DNA of 64,000 bases from a virus, in IMG/VR virus record IMGVR_UViG_3300030380_005342, positions 1-64,000 of that record; one strand, 5' to 3'. The notes under the pieces are model-generated. The model was not told the origin of the DNA. It did no database searches and saw nothing but the letters and a program-made list of their open reading frames with translations. The translations under genes and the position numbers were made by a program. Positions 267 through 4,258 of the stretch are shown here, in pieces. The number at the start of each line of letters is the position of its first letter. Position 1 is the stretch's first letter.

Positions 267-1730
267 TTAGTTTCTTGGTCCACCCGGAGTGTCGCGTCCG
301 CCTGCCCTATTGTAAGGGTCAACTGTCGGAGCGGGAGTTGGGACATCTCTACCACCGCCTCTACTACCGCTCACTACTCCCTGAGTGGCAAGAGCCTGAG
401 CATTTGCCGCAACTGAATTTGCGATCAAACCATTTGTTTGCGCACTATTCTCAAGCATCGTATCTCTTAGCCCGGTGTTTGAATTTGAAATCAAACTCAA
501 AACTTCATCAAGTTCTTTACTCAAGGTTGCAAAAATATCAGTTGACTCAAGTTCTTGCTCGGATGCCTCTTTGATTGTTTCTCTAGTCGCCTTGCCCTCT
601 CTCAAGGCAAGTCGATCTGCTCTTTTTCTCTCTCGTTCCTCTTTCCTGATTTGGAACTCTCTTTCAAGTTCTGTTGCCCGCGTAAAATCAAAAAGTAAAT
701 AATTTACTGCCTTCCGCACGCTTGTCGCAATCAAATCAAAGAAACCAAAAATTCTTTCAATGTCTAAAAGACCAAAAGTAAAAGATTCTAAAAGACCTCC
801 AACAACCGATGTGAGAAGTCCTCCGATTCCTGCCTGTCCACCAGCCCTAAAGTAGTCAGACAATCCTTGGATGATGCCAAGCACTACTGTGATAGGTATG
901 AAAATTTTTCCCAAGATTCCTGACACTACTTTAAAGAAGGGCATGATTGTTTTAAAGATACCGCCCGCAAAACCAAGAAACTTGAGAACTGGTGTGACAA
1001 TTTTTTGAAGTAAAGACCCCGTGCTGATAGCAAAATTTTTCACGGCAATAAACGAATTAACGAGTATTTCGACACCACGAAGAATTCTTGGAGATTCTGC
1101 AAAAAATAATGTTGCTGCTTGAACTGCTTTAACAATACTCGGTCCTATCGAGGCAAGTTTTGTCCCGGTAAAGAAGGCTTGGGTGCTTCGAGCCAAACCA
1201 GTCAAAATTTTTGGAATCGTAAAAACACTTTGAAACAAACCTCTATTAATAGCAAATAATGTTGTTCCGATGGCTGCAATCTCTTTATCAATTTTGAATC
1301 CTCTTATTAATATGGCAGGAATAGCAGCCAAGCCAAGCACAGATAACACATCAGCCATTCTGTTTGCAAAGGCAATACTAAGAGGGCTGGGAATGGTGTT
1401 TCTTACGAGGTCAATCGCACCCGTAATCCTATCACCAAGTTTATCAAACAAAGTTTTTTCAACGTCTTTTACCTCTTCGGCACGCTCCTCTTCTGCTTCC
1501 AGCAAGTCGCGTGATGAAGTTTTATTTAAAGATACAAGTTCATTTAAATCTGGAACAATGTCAGTAGTAACATTATCTCTAATCTGTAGGATGTTTTCTT
1601 CTTGTGACTGTTCAGCCTGCAAAGCCTCAACAATCTCACGGAATGGGACATCAGCACCACCAGTCGGAACTGGTGATGGACCTGCTATTGGTCTTGGTCC
1701 GATGAAACTGTTATCACTAGGATCTGCCAC
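267..1730 (-). CDS. Putative tail tape-measure / baseplate hub protein (gp29-like)
   Basis: 487 aa, GTG start. Helical N-terminus, long hydrophobic Gly/Ala/Ile/Phe-rich middle, charged coiled coil. Lies directly downstream of gp26/gp51. Confidence 0.6.
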   Translation of the reverse strand: MADPSDNSFIGPRPIAGPSPVPTGGADVPFREIVEALQAEQSQEENILQIRDNVTTDIVPDLNELVSLNKTSSRDLLEAEEERAEEVKDVEKTLFDKLGDRITGAIDLVRNTIPSPLSIAFANRMADVLSVLGLAAIPAILIRGFKIDKEIAAIGTTLFAINRGLFQSVFTIPKILTGLARSTQAFFTGTKLASIGPSIVKAVQAATLFFAESPRILRGVEILVNSFIAVKNFAISTGSLLQKIVTPVLKFLGFAGGIFKTIMPFFKVVSGILGKIFIPITVVLGIIQGLSDYFRAGGQAGIGGLLTSVVGGLLESFTFGLLDIERIFGFFDLIATSVRKAVNYLLFDFTRATELEREFQIRKEERERKRADRLALREGKATRETIKEASEQELESTDIFATLSKELDEVLSLISNSNTGLRDTMLENSAQTNGLIANSVAANAQALATQGVVSGSRGGGRDVPTPAPTVDPYNRAGGRDTPGGPRN

Positions 1731-1896
1731 TTCGCTTAAAACCTTCCTGTTCTTGTTTTAGTTGCTCCATAATCATGTAGAAGTAAGTTGTTTTCTCCCA
1801 AGGGAGTAAATCTTCAATATCACCCAAACTCATATTCATTCTTGTGCAAAGTATGTAGTTTGAACGCATGTGTCCCTCAAGGTTATCATGACACAT
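1717..1896 (-). CDS. gp51: Baseplate hub assembly protein gp51-like (59 aa, below ORF-track cutoff); probably expressed as a frameshift extension of gp26
   Basis: Manual translation MCHDNLEGHMRSNYILCTRMNMSLGDIEDLLPWEKTTYFYMIMEQLKQEQEGFKRSGRS* matches the H..L..Y..N....SL..IE...PWE...Y pattern of marine T4-like gp51. Confidence 0.8.
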   Translation of the reverse strand: MCHDNLEGHMRSNYILCTRMNMSLGDIEDLLPWEKTTYFYMIMEQLKQEQEGFKRSGRS

Positions 1897-1911
1897 GCTT
1901 ACATAAAAAAA
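1866..1911 (-). promoter_or_regulatory. Putative -1 programmed ribosomal frameshift signal (slippery heptamer + stimulatory hairpin)
   Basis: Minus strand: aaT TTT TTT (1911-1905), 6-nt spacer ATGTAA, then GCATGTGTC-15 nt-GACACATGC (1898-1866). The -1 frame is open into gp51. Confidence 0.7.
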
Positions 1912-2603
1912 TTCTCCAGTCCTTTGACAAGTTGATTATTCTTCGCACCACAACTTGCACAGGTATAGTTTACCTCACAAGAGGCAGTTGGTAATTTTTC
2001 AGCATACTGTGTGATTTCAGTGATGTGCTTCATACTCAAAGAATCAACAAAAGCCTTTTGCTCGGAGAATGGCATCTCAGAAAAAGTATAAATTTGATCT
2101 TTCGTAAAAACTTTATCAATAAAAAATGCCACTGAGTTTACATTGTCTTTCTCTGTGAGCGAGGCAGCCTGTCCCATTCTTGACATCTTGATCGGTGTGC
2201 AAGTAACACCAACCTCTTCGTTCAGCATAATCCTTGCCTCACCGATATCTGACTTTTTAGTGGTTTCGCAAACATCATCAAGATTAATTGACACGGGCGA
2301 TTGCTTTCCACAAGATTTACATTTAAGCGAAAGATCAACAGACTCACCCATCGATCTAACTCTCATGCTCAAAAATAGAATTTCAAAATCGTTGTAACTA
2401 ATATCATCAATCTTAGGACCATCAATAATACATTGCTCAACAATCTTTTTTAAGTTATTTACGAGAAGGTTCTGATCCTTTGCCTCTTTGAGCATCATGA
2501 ACATTTTTTCTTCTTTGACTAAGAAGGGTCTATAAGTTACTTTTTGTTTTGAGATTGGTAATTCAATCACATATTCAGGAGTCTTAATTTTTGGTAATTG
2601 CAT
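1899..2603 (-). CDS. gp26: Baseplate hub subunit / assembly chaperone gp26-like
   Basis: MQLPKI.TP.Y..ELP, YRPFLVKEEK, DFEILFL..R.RS.GE, two CxxC motifs, C-terminal GLENFF. Confidence 0.88.
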   Translation of the reverse strand: MQLPKIKTPEYVIELPISKQKVTYRPFLVKEEKMFMMLKEAKDQNLLVNNLKKIVEQCIIDGPKIDDISYNDFEILFLSMRVRSMGESVDLSLKCKSCGKQSPVSINLDDVCETTKKSDIGEARIMLNEEVGVTCTPIKMSRMGQAASLTEKDNVNSVAFFIDKVFTKDQIYTFSEMPFSEQKAFVDSLSMKHITEITQYAEKLPTASCEVNYTCASCGAKNNQLVKGLENFFM

Positions 2604-2617
2604 GATAACCTTTCATA

Positions 2618-3226
2618 TTAAATGTTTGATCTAAAAATAGTCGCTGCTTCCACTGAGTTTAATCTATCCATGCTTCTTGGATTCAAAACAACATCGAACG
2701 ACATAAGCCCTGCACCCTCATCTGAGTCAGCGAAACTTCCATTTGACACCGAACTTAGGATAGCGTTTCTTACCAAGAATCCGTGTCTCGCCCTTTCTTG
2801 ATCATCTAAGCCAATAATCGCCAAGTCACATTCAAGGGTATCACGATATGGAATCTGTCCTGCACTCACCGTACCTGTGGTAAGTTCAAGCCAATCTTGG
2901 AACACTGAATAGAAACGATTGGATGCATCTGAGAGAAGCCTGAGACTCAAAGAGTCACTGATATTAAAACCATAGACATGTTTATACGCATGCGCACTTT
3001 GATCTGAGATATCGGAGGTTAGAGTTGCTAAGGACGGTACTTCAACTGACTGCACCCGAGAGTTGAATTCCCTGTTAAAGTCTCTTCGCAAAAATCCATT
3101 GTTTCTAATCGCAGAGGAAAATGTCATAGGGATAGATTGAAAGGTAACAAAATACTTGTTGCCTCGTTGGTATCCTCGCTTGCTCAACGAAGAGAGAAAA
3201 TTAGTGATTGATAATCCTTCTGCCAT
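2618..3226 (-). CDS. Tail-tube-fold protein (gp54-like baseplate tail tube initiator)
   Basis: N-terminal ...RGNKYFV.F, V.SVEVP, F.DW, LD.Q pattern of gp19/gp54 family; synteny between gp2 and gp26. Confidence 0.6.
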   Translation of the reverse strand: MAEGLSITNFLSSLSKRGYQRGNKYFVTFQSIPMTFSSAIRNNGFLRRDFNREFNSRVQSVEVPSLATLTSDISDQSAHAYKHVYGFNISDSLSLRLLSDASNRFYSVFQDWLELTTGTVSAGQIPYRDTLECDLAIIGLDDQERARHGFLVRNAILSSVSNGSFADSDEGAGLMSFDVVLNPRSMDRLNSVEAATIFRSNI

Positions 3227-3238: not shown

Positions 3239-3831
3239 TAGTTTCTAAGAAACTTTACTCGGTAATCTTTGTAAACTTCTGAAACACTTGCCCCTCTAAA
3301 CAATTTGTTCATCTTTGCTGATGTCTGACCAAGATACATGTCTATCCAAAGACGGGGAGAAAGTCTTACAACCCGTGAACTAATCCTCGATTTGATATAC
3401 CTTTTAATCGCAGGCTTCATTGCCTCTCCAAGAGCGGTATCTTTTATTTTTTGATAAATTACAACAGTTCTGTCATTAGCATCAATATTTTTATTTGTTG
3501 TCAAATTATTCAAGAAAAAGTCTATAACTTTGACTCTGACTCTGGGTGGTATGTAATACGGATTGATACCGATCATGTCTCCACCCTCCTCTCCAATCAT
3601 GATTGATGCAGGAAAAATATGATGATACTTTAGTCTGCCACCTTTTTCATAACCTTTTGGATTGCTATATCCAAAAACATAACACCTACCAAGTTGTGAA
3701 GGCATCTGTGCTGTTGTTTCAAGAATCAATTGATTTTTGAGATCTTTAATTGATGGAATTTGATTTGAAAACATTGGAACCAAATCTTTGAAAAAATCAA
3801 CGGTGAGCGATAGTTCTGGATTACTTGCCAT
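3235..3831 (-). CDS. gp2: DNA end protector protein gp2
   Basis: G..Y.F.Y..PK, Y...FP, GIN.YYIPP..R, P.IKRY motifs; adjacent to gp4. Confidence 0.75.
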   Translation of the reverse strand: MASNPELSLTVDFFKDLVPMFSNQIPSIKDLKNQLILETTAQMPSQLGRCYVFGYSNPKGYEKGGRLKYHHIFPASIMIGEEGGDMIGINPYYIPPRVRVKVIDFFLNNLTTNKNIDANDRTVVIYQKIKDTALGEAMKPAIKRYIKSRISSRVVRLSPRLWIDMYLGQTSAKMNKLFRGASVSEVYKDYRVKFLRNY

Positions 3832-4258
3832 AGATTTCTTTCTCCGTCATGATTCTGAATGTCCAGCCTTTACGATCACATAGGGCTTGAGCAGCAGCCC
3901 ACTTTGCCTGATTGATGGCGTATGTTTTTGCCTCGTTGAGATAAGTCACTGATTTTCTTTTTCTAGGCTTTGGTGGCTCCGTTTGTTTTTTTGGTTTTAC
4001 TTCAATCATGATTGTTTCAACTTTGCCTTCTTTGTTCTTAAGTTCAACCATAAAGTCTGGATAATATCTGTGACGCTTTCTATCAACAGGTGATAAATAC
4101 GGTATGGCGATCTCTTCTGATGCCCATTTGATTATGTTTGGATTATCATCAAACGTGAGCATACACTTTCTTTCCCATAAGGATCGGTAATTTATTTTTG
4201 TTGGATCACCAACATATTTGTTTGGATTCTTGGGTTTGTATTTACCACGGTAAGCCAT
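3821..4258 (-). CDS. gp4: Head completion nuclease gp4 (TnsA-like)
   Basis: MAYRGKYKPKNPNKYVGDP..I.YRSLWE, W.SEE..IPY.SPVD...HRYYPDF, IEVKP, NQAKW.AA. Confidence 0.95.
   Translation of the reverse strand: MAYRGKYKPKNPNKYVGDPTKINYRSLWERKCMLTFDDNPNIIKWASEEIAIPYLSPVDRKRHRYYPDFMVELKNKEGKVETIMIEVKPKKQTEPPKPRKRKSVTYLNEAKTYAINQAKWAAAQALCDRKGWTFRIMTEKEIYGK

What the first reader, a model, noticed from the sequence alone, without database searches (positions are those of the whole stretch)
1717..2603. Candidate -1 programmed frameshift fusing gp26 to gp51, like the lambda G/GT tail chaperones
Seen (minus strand): gp26 ends GAG AAT TTT TTT ATG TAA, giving an in-frame slippery heptamer U UUU UUU at 1911-1905. 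A perfect 9-bp hairpin, GCATGTGTC-15 nt-GACACATGC (1898-1866), begins exactly 6 nt later. The -1 frame is open from the slip site (F-F-Y-V-S-M-C-H-D-N-L...) through the whole gp51 ORF, predicting a 234-aa product and a 295-aa fusion. The gp51 ATG lies inside the stem and has no SD. Gene order is tube-fold gene, gp26, gp51, tape-measure-like gene. Established: lambda G/GT and P2 E/E' chaperones use -1 frameshifts in this position, and a heptamer + 5-9 nt spacer + stem is the canonical signal. Inference: gp26 and gp51, usually annotated as two separate genes in marine T4-like phages, may be the T4-superfamily equivalent of that chaperone pair.
Basis: partly seen in the sequence, partly recalled or inferred. 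Interest (0 to 1): 0.85.

Follow-up and report, generated by a model that had tools for sequence, protein, structure and literature searches.

The report
Frameshift joins phage gp26 and gp51
One tail-assembly chaperone gene of this uncultured marine T4-like phage very probably makes a 234-residue and a 295-residue protein because some ribosomes slip back one base on a TTTTTTT run; this trick was already published for T4-like phages in 2022, so this is a new example, not a new mechanism.

Summary
gp26 (2603-1899, minus strand) ends AAT TTT TTT ATG TAA. The 9-bp hairpin starts 6 nt after the heptamer. The -1 frame runs open into gp51, giving a 295-aa fusion.

- In about 170 related loci, gp51 is always in the -1 frame.
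- All but one junction have NNT TTT TTN in register. The one exception uses A_AAT_TTT.
- The codon before Phe-Phe varies in amino acid but always ends in T. The first Phe codon is always TTT.
- 34 of 56 lineages have no start codon ahead of the conserved gp51 motif.
- T4 gp51 is itself a gp26-like domain plus this C-terminal extension, and the fusion aligns with it across the junction.
- Eight T4-type phages with separate genes 26 and 51 lack the heptamer.
- The gp26 N-domain model best matches the HK97 tail assembly chaperone.

The hairpin is kept only in the window's own clade, shows no compensatory changes, and is not enriched family-wide.

This is not new. Vladimirov, Gautam and Davidson (Virology 2022) identified gp26/gp51 as the T4-like tail assembly chaperones, and citing papers report poly-T slip sites from that work. 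This scan has also found the same device repeatedly on other DNA. Public records still annotate two genes.

The parts
1899..2603 (-). gp26 / short tail assembly chaperone form (TAC-N), 234 aa, zero frame, stop TAA at 1901-1899
   Evidence: ORF list. PF12322 T4_baseplate E 1.6e-46, 159 bits against a 24.5-bit cut-off. phrog_150 E 1.2e-47. AF2 model pLDDT 86. The model's N-domain (residues 1-95) best matches 3fgx, 3klu (YqbN) and 2ob9 (HK97 tail assembly chaperone) at Z 6.5-7.3.
1905..1911 (-). Slippery heptamer T_TTT_TTT in X_XXY_YYZ register, (AA)T TTT TTT
   Evidence: Sequence. The same register and motif T_TTT_TTN occur in 84/84 loci, in 82/83 further unique junctions and in 5 isolates. The motif is absent from 8 two-gene T4-type gp26 genes.
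1866..1898 (-). Hairpin: 9-bp stem GCATGTGTC / GACACATGC with a 15-nt loop, 6 nt after the heptamer. Possible clade-specific stimulator.
   Evidence: Fold centroid -13.5 kcal/mol. The core GCATGTG..CACATGC is kept in L002, L165 and L166, without compensatory change. Downstream structure is not enriched across the family.
1717..1905 (-). -1 frame extension read after the slip: 62 codons, YVSMCHDNLEGHMR...GRS, then TAG at 1719-1717. This is the C-terminal domain of the long form (TAC-NC, 295 aa).
   Evidence: Translation and fusion length. Aligns with T4 gp51 residues about 195-249. phrog_634 E 7e-13.
1717..1896 (-). The ORF usually annotated as gp51 (59 aa from ATG 1896). Probably not a separate gene.
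   Evidence: ORF list. It matches only positions 60-112 of the 121-position phrog_634 profile. 34 of 56 lineages have no start codon at this position.
1936..1938 (-). TAA in the -1 frame, bounding the region where a shift could occur (1935-1899)
   Evidence: Read directly from the sequence.
2618..3226 (-). Upstream tail-tube-like gene (202 aa)
   Evidence: phrog_45 tail tube E 1e-10. The same position in phiM12 is annotated gp19.2 tail tube monomer.
267..1730 (-). Downstream 487-aa ORF, probably the tape measure protein (GTG start at 1730)
   Evidence: No Pfam, PHROG or NCBIfam hit. No BLASTP similarity to T4 gp29 or the S-SM1 counterpart. Atlas feature hit at 0.92 to a PF25671 T4_Tape_measure cluster, a lead only. 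In L166 the same protein starts MASPNDPNFVGPRP right after gp51.

Best explanation
Genes 'gp26' and 'gp51' of this marine T4-like phage are one recoded gene for the tail (tape-measure/hub) assembly chaperone.

Most ribosomes read AAT TTT TTT ATG and stop at TAA, giving the 234-aa short form. A minority slip back one base, with both Phe-tRNAs on U_UUU_UUU. They then read YVSMCHDN... for 62 more codons, giving a 295-aa long form.

The long form has the architecture of T4 gp51 and the short form that of T4 gp26. By analogy with lambda G/GT, the shared N-domain coats the tape measure protein and the extra C-domain recruits the tube or hub.

Shown here: the anatomy of the site, the strict nucleotide-level conservation of the slip site and frame, and homology of the fusion to T4 gp51.

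Inferred, not shown: that ribosomes really shift, at what rate, that the hairpin helps, and what the chaperone does biochemically.
For: 1. Frame. gp51 homology lies in the -1 frame in 83/83 diverse IMG/VR loci and in 85/85 loci of a second, partly overlapping batch. It is also in the -1 frame in S-SM1, S-CAM22, phiM12, Melnitz-3, pf16 and vB_VmeM-32. No locus has an intervening stop.

2. Slip site.
- NNT TTT TTY/A is present in 84/84 loci.
- The codon before Phe-Phe encodes N, S, D, A, G or H but always ends in T. The first Phe codon is always TTT, while the second is TTT or TTC.
- Over 58 clusters at 60% amino-acid identity, P(all NNT given the amino acids) = 5e-14 and P(first Phe always TTT) = 3e-10 against usage elsewhere in the same genes. 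These figures treat the clusters as independent.
- The only junction without a T-run (L146) has A_AAT_TTT in the same register, with the -1 frame open.

3. No independent start. 34 of 56 lineages have no ATG, GTG or TTG in the -1 frame before the conserved L-S-H-D-S-L motif, and 44 of 56 have no ATG.

4. Homology to T4.
- T4 gp51 matches PF12322 over residues 1-201 (E 3.9e-52) and phrog_634 over residues 147-246.
- The window's fusion aligns with T4 gp51 across the junction. T4 gp26 ends ...GLKEFFELL.

5. Natural control. Eight Straboviridae with separate, divergently oriented genes 26 and 51 have no slippery heptamer. Their tails read GAG TTC TTT and similar.

6. Copy number. The 74-kb record holds only one PF12322 gene.

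7. Fold. The top four of 48,161 chains for the N-domain are 3fgx, 3klu (YqbN), 2ob9 (HK97 tail assembly chaperone) and 5ir0, at Z 6.2-7.3. The next match is at Z 4.3.

8. Literature. PMC10885494 and PMC12846349 cite Vladimirov et al. 2022 for T4-like chaperone genes and their poly-T slip sites.
Against: - There is no direct evidence of shifting. No RNA run holds the sequence, and there are no proteomic or ribosome-profiling data.
- In this window an ATG lies 2 nt after the gp26 stop, so termination-reinitiation could also yield a free 59-aa peptide.
- The hairpin is not a family feature and shows no covariation.
- The structural match to known chaperones is moderate: Z below 8, rmsd about 4.3 A.
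- The record is only about 40% complete, so a second, long paralogue elsewhere cannot be strictly excluded.
- An extra U added by RNA polymerase on the T7 run would give the same protein.
Confidence: 0.86

Rival explanations
1. gp51 is a separate 59-aa protein. It would be made by termination-reinitiation or translational coupling at ATG 1896, 2 nt after the gp26 stop, and no fusion would be made.
For: The ATG at 1896-1894 follows TAA 1901-1899 closely. The Met is kept in the window's clade as S-M-C-H. All public records checked annotate two CDS.
Against: - 34 of 56 lineages have no start codon before the conserved motif.
- Conserved residues begin directly at the slip site.
- The NNT and TTT constraints have no explanation under this model.
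- T4 gp51 carries this segment fused to a gp26-like domain.
- There is no Shine-Dalgarno sequence at working distance.

Reinitiation could still occur alongside the shift in this clade.
Confidence: 0.06
2. The fusion is made from edited mRNA. RNA polymerase would stutter on the T7 run and add one U, so that ordinary translation yields the same 295-aa protein.
For: A homopolymer of 7 T is present. One extra U gives exactly the same protein sequence as a -1 ribosomal slip; this follows from the sequence.
Against: - 57 of 83 unique junctions have only six T followed by C. One has AAATTTT with no long run, yet all keep the exact X_XXY_YYZ codon register, which matters only for tRNA re-pairing.
- From general knowledge, efficient bacterial transcriptional slippage usually needs runs of about 9 or more.
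- DNA contigs from four other studies show no length variation at the run.
Confidence: 0.06
3. Coincidence. Phe-Phe is conserved for protein reasons, and the neighbouring ORF happens to lie in the -1 frame.
For: Phe-Phe is also conserved in T4 gp26, which cannot be fused. T7 runs are common in the window, with 33 present.
Against: - The synonymous-site constraints give P of 5e-14 and 3e-10.
- The frame relation is -1 in every locus examined (83/83 and 85/85).
- The heptamer is lost in exactly the lineages that have two genes.
Confidence: 0.01

Closest known systems
[quoted passage not shown]
   Same: Same protein family (gp26/gp51), and the same reading as short and long chaperone forms. Citing papers report from that work both the poly-T slippery sequences in 'TAC-N genes of T4-like phages' (PMC12846349) and the two-gene alternative in 'some T4-like phages' (PMC10885494).
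   Different: I could not read the paper itself because it is not held, so I do not know which lineages it covered. The window's gp26 is at most 33% identical to that of any sequenced isolate. It belongs to an uncultured marine clade with its own hairpin and an S-M-C-H...G-H-M-R junction peptide.
Lambda gpG/gpGT and the conserved -1 frameshift of tail assembly chaperone genes (Levin et al. 1993; Xu, Hendrix and Duda 2004; cited from my own knowledge and as listed in PMC12859696)
   Same: - Two overlapping ORFs lie between the tube gene and the tape measure gene.
- The slip occurs on an X_XXY_YYZ heptamer a few codons before the stop of the first ORF.
- The long form equals the short form plus a C-terminal domain.
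- The N-domain fold resembles the HK97 chaperone.
   Different: - The heptamer is U_UUU_UUU, not G_GGA_AAG.
- The short form is larger (234 aa, against about 140 aa for gpG from memory) and carries two CxxC zinc-ribbon-like motifs.
- There is no detectable sequence similarity to Phage_TAC Pfam families.
Phage T4 gp26 (208 aa) and gp51 (249 aa)
   Same: Both match PF12322. T4 gp51 equals a gp26-like domain plus an extension homologous to the window's gp51. The window's fusion aligns with T4 gp51 across the junction.
   Different: T4 encodes the two forms as separate genes on opposite strands, with no slippery heptamer (GAG TTC TTT). The window has one gene plus a -1 extension.
Poly-U slip sites: HIV-1 gag-pol U_UUU_UUA and T7 gene 10 G_GUU_UUC (my own knowledge; T7 is also named in PMC12846349)
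   Same: Tandem slippage of Phe-type tRNAs on a U-rich heptamer, followed by a downstream stem after a short spacer.
   Different: Unrelated genes and hosts. Here the stem is present only in some lineages.

Membership tests
Tail assembly chaperone -1 frameshift pair (lambda G/GT type) | Two overlapping ORFs located between the tail tube gene and the tape measure gene | tested here: met
   A tube-like ORF (phrog_45, E 1e-10) lies upstream. The downstream 487-aa ORF is tape-measure-like by position and by an Atlas lead only. phiM12 has the same order, with annotated tube and tape-measure-like genes.
Tail assembly chaperone -1 frameshift pair (lambda G/GT type) | [quoted passage not shown] | tested here: met
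   T_TTT_TTT at 1911-1905, one codon before the stop. It is conserved in 84/84 loci and 82/83 further junctions.
Tail assembly chaperone -1 frameshift pair (lambda G/GT type) | Second ORF in the -1 frame, open from the slip site, conserved in frame across relatives, and often without its own start | tested here: met
   -1 frame in 83/83 and 85/85 loci. No stops. 34 of 56 lineages have no start codon.
Tail assembly chaperone -1 frameshift pair (lambda G/GT type) | Chaperone fold of the shared N-terminal domain | tested here: met
   VIA-align against 48,161 chains gives 3fgx Z 7.3, 3klu (YqbN) Z 6.7, 2ob9 (HK97 tail assembly chaperone) Z 6.5 (rmsd 4.3 A, 82 residues) and 5ir0 Z 6.2. The next row is at Z 4.3. 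The strength is moderate. Foldseek found nothing at E <= 0.001.
Tail assembly chaperone -1 frameshift pair (lambda G/GT type) | Downstream stimulatory RNA structure | tested here: inconclusive
   The 9-bp stem after a 6-nt spacer is present and kept in the window's clade. It shows no compensatory changes, and structure is not enriched across 57 lineages relative to control positions. A stem is not required in all known chaperone frameshift sites.
Tail assembly chaperone -1 frameshift pair (lambda G/GT type) | Both products made in vivo at a fixed ratio, and both required for tail assembly | not testable with these tools
   No RNA holder was listed. The phage is uncultured.
T4 gp26/gp51 family (PF12322 plus the phrog_634 extension) | PF12322 T4_baseplate domain above Pfam's gathering score | tested here: met
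   159.2 bits against a 24.5-bit cut-off, covering profile positions 2-218 of 219.
T4 gp26/gp51 family (PF12322 plus the phrog_634 extension) | C-terminal extension homologous to the C-terminus of T4 gp51 | tested here: met
   phrog_634 E 7e-13 for the window, and the same family matches T4 gp51 residues 147-246. The two align across the junction.
T4 gp26/gp51 family (PF12322 plus the phrog_634 extension) | T4-type organisation: two separate paralogous genes | tested here: not met
   There is a single PF12322 gene in the 74-kb record. The window has the one-gene, frameshift organisation. The record is about 40% complete.

The most novel reading that the evidence does not exclude
In this particular marine clade the site may yield three products rather than two: gp26, the gp26-51 fusion, and a free 59-aa gp51 peptide.

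The clade-specific ATG sits 2 nt after the stop and inside the 5' arm of a clade-specific hairpin. Ribosomes terminating there would melt the stem and could reinitiate. The stem would then tune both the frameshift rate and reinitiation, setting a lineage-specific ratio of chaperone forms.
Probability: 0.12. Interest if true: 0.4.

Novelty: new member of a known kind. Interest (0 to 1): 0.3.

Why it matters
It confirms that a deep-branching, uncultured marine T4-like lineage uses the same chaperone frameshift as cyanophage, rhizobiophage and pseudomonad T4-like phages. The T4 two-gene arrangement therefore looks like the exception. Which arrangement came first was not tested.

The practical value is for annotation. 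Every public record I checked lists gp26 and a short 'gp51' or 'hypothetical protein' as two genes, sometimes starting gp51 at an internal ATG. A joined -1 CDS would be more accurate.

The T_TTT_TTY rule, the one A_AAT_TTT exception and the loss of the heptamer in two-gene phages together give a clean natural data set for studying poly-U frameshift sites. It is not a new mechanism.

Tried and rejected
A scan of viral contigs with P0009 found nothing.
- The Vladimirov 2022 paper is not held, so only citing papers could be read.
- No RNA holder was listed for the stretch. Contigs of four other DNA runs matched the window at every position they covered across the junction; one change, at 1943, lies outside it. 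They added nothing.
- Foldseek against the PDB gave no match at E <= 0.001. A sequence profile against the PDB gave nothing.
- No Phage_TAC Pfam family appeared, even at E up to 10.
- The 487-aa downstream ORF has no Pfam, PHROG or NCBIfam hit and no BLASTP similarity to T4 gp29 or the S-SM1 counterpart.
- I considered that the conserved E-G-L codons (GAR GGN) upstream act as an internal Shine-Dalgarno-like stimulator. This cannot be separated from amino-acid conservation, because T4 gp26 keeps G-L without a frameshift, so I dropped it.
- The fusion protein could not be folded, because it cannot be given by reference.
Full report
**What is in the sequence**

On the minus strand, the ORF 2603..1899 (234 aa) ends GAG AAT TTT TTT ATG TAA.
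- The seven T at 1911-1905 lie in the canonical X_XXY_YYZ register.
- After a 6-nt spacer that contains the stop codon, a perfect 9-bp stem (1898-1890 pairing with 1874-1866, 15-nt loop) follows.
- The -1 frame has a TAA at 1938-1936. It is then open through the slip site to TAG 1719-1717.
- A slip therefore gives 233 + 62 = 295 residues with the junction ...GLENFF/YVSMCHDNLEGHMR.
- The ATG of the annotated 59-aa ORF (1896) lies in the 5' arm of the stem, and no Shine-Dalgarno sequence sits at a working distance.

Taken alone the sequence is not compelling. T7 runs occur 33 times in the window, against 61 expected. The hairpin is only z -1.28 against dinucleotide shuffles.

**Identity of the genes**

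- The 234-aa protein is a full-length PF12322 (T4_baseplate, the gp26 family) member, E 1.6e-46.
- The 59-aa ORF matches phrog_634 'baseplate hub assembly catalyst' (gp51), but only positions 60-112 of a 121-position profile.
- The gene upstream is tail-tube-like (phrog_45), preceded by gp2-like and gp4-like genes.
- The 487-aa ORF downstream has no family hit. It has a glycine-rich hydrophobic centre and an Atlas lead to T4_Tape_measure clusters.
- Sinorhizobium phage phiM12 has the same order, annotated gp2, gp19.2 tube, gp26, gp51, a hypothetical protein, then a tape-measure-like gene.

**The key homology**

T4 gp51 (249 aa) itself matches PF12322 over residues 1-201 (E 3.9e-52) and phrog_634 over residues 147-246. 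So T4 gp51 is a gp26-like domain plus the segment that marine phages encode as a short 'gp51'.
- The window's fusion aligns with T4 gp51 across the junction, for example NMSLGDIEDLLPWEKTTY against NYSLNSISKMIPAERGF.
- T4 gp26 stops at ...GLKEFFELL, exactly where the window's gp26 stops.
- In T4 the two genes lie on opposite strands, so they are separate paralogues.
- Sullivan et al. 2010 had already noted that cyanophage gp51 is only about 20% of the usual length (PMC3037559).

**Comparative test**

I fetched 80 diverse IMG/VR loci whose gp26 is 28-35% identical to the window's, plus near relatives and isolates.
- Frame: a gp51 profile finds its match in the -1 frame in 83 of 83 loci; one further locus was truncated. 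A second, partly overlapping batch gave 85 of 85.
- Heptamer: every gp26 tail reads NNT TTT TTY, with TTA once.
- Preceding codon: it encodes N, S, D, A, G or H but always ends in T.
- Phe codons: the first is always TTT, while the second is TTT or TTC.
- Statistics: measured against codon usage elsewhere in the same genes and reduced to 58 clusters at 60% identity, and treating those clusters as independent, the chance values are 5e-14 and 3e-10.
- Exception: among 83 further unique junctions, the only one without the T-run (L146) has A_AAT_TTT in the same register, with the -1 frame open into gp51.
- Stops and starts: no locus has a stop between the slip site and gp51. In 34 of 56 lineages there is no ATG, GTG or TTG before the conserved L-S-H-D-S-L motif. 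Conservation starts right at the slip.

**Natural control**

Eight Straboviridae with separate genes 26 and 51 were checked: T4, Melville, KPV15, QL01, phiR1-RT, Kimel, RB49 and Aes012.
- None has a slippery heptamer.
- Where Phe-Phe is kept it is coded TTC TTT after GAG or GAA.
- The Straboviridae vibriophage vB_VmeM-32 has the one-gene layout. It has GAT TTT TTT and an unannotated -1 extension.

**Hairpin**

The stem core GCATGTG..CACATGC is kept in relatives with 57-96% identical gp26 (L002, L165, L166). There is no compensatory change, and it overlaps conserved codons. Some other lineages have strong stems at the same place with different sequences, for example L052, L080 and L060. Many have none, and across 57 lineages downstream structure is no more frequent than at control positions. 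The stem may stimulate the shift in this clade, but that remains untested.

**Fold**

An AF2 model of gp26 (pLDDT 86) has no Foldseek match. The wide VIA search puts 3fgx, 3klu (YqbN), 2ob9 (HK97 tail assembly chaperone) and 5ir0 on top for residues 1-95, at Z 6.2-7.3. The next row is at Z 4.3. This is moderate support for a chaperone fold.

**Mechanism and rivals**

The best reading is a programmed -1 ribosomal frameshift that gives a short and a long chaperone form.
- Reinitiation at ATG 1896 cannot explain the family-wide pattern, but it could add a third product in this clade.
- Transcriptional slippage would give the same protein. It does not explain the strict codon register, the six-T sites or the A_AAT_TTT site.
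- No expression data could be obtained.

**Novelty**

The PRFect paper (PMC10885494) and the phage Adele paper (PMC12846349) cite Vladimirov, Gautam and Davidson 2022. They cite it for the identification of the T4-like chaperone genes, for poly-T slip sites in their short-form genes, and for the two-gene alternative in some T4-like phages. Kimel's record already names gp26 and gp51 'tape measure protein assembly chaperone'. I could not read the 2022 paper itself. Earlier notes of this scan report the same device on many other genomes; one of them says no published report exists, which my literature search contradicts. The window is therefore a new, divergent member of a known kind. Its value is mainly for annotation, since all public records checked still list two genes.

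Noticed in passing
L146:2193-2240: This is the only junction without a T-run. gp26 ends TTA AAT TTT ACC GGT GGG TGA, which gives A_AAT_TTT in the same register. The -1 frame reads KFYRWVMAYNNLENYY... into a normal gp51 domain. It is a natural swap of one slippery heptamer for another.
   Followed up: partly
L187:1960-2200 (Vibrio phage vB_VmeM-32, KU160494.1): gp26 (252 aa) ends GAT TTT TTT CTA TAA. A gp51-like -1 extension (...ELTPMDLTIYKQLYLHELRKK...) lies in a stretch with no annotated gene.
   Followed up: partly
L168:1911-2099 (S-CAM22) and L170:1896-2093 (Melnitz-3): Public annotation starts 'gp51' at an internal ATG about 50 nt after the gp26 stop. This cuts off some 17 conserved codons (FFRIALLHTNLRSYY...). 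The product is labelled 'hypothetical protein' in S-CAM22.
   Followed up: partly
L181:480-1237 (Klebsiella phage KPV15, KY000080.1): The position of gene 51 is annotated as two short 'baseplate protein' CDS (480-803 and 875-1237). This may be a sequencing error or a broken gene 51.
   Followed up: no
window 1711-1730: The gp51 frame ends in three consecutive stops, TAG TGA TAA (1719-1711). The tape-measure-like ORF starts at GTG 1730 and overlaps the last gp51 codons. In L166 the same protein starts with ATG (MASPNDPNFVGPRP) directly after gp51.
   Followed up: partly
window 3821-4258: The gp4-like head completion protein (phrog_218, E 2e-58) also matches Pfam PF08722 TnsA-like endonuclease N-terminal domain (E 3.7e-25).
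   Followed up: no
window, whole: T7 runs are under-represented: 33 found against 61 +/- 10.5 expected from dinucleotide shuffles. All but two lie on the minus strand, which appears from the stretch examined to be the main coding strand.
   Followed up: no
window 1600-2700: Near-identical DNA occurs in marine metagenomes of 12 studies and in one cave metagenome, so the phage is widespread.
   Followed up: no
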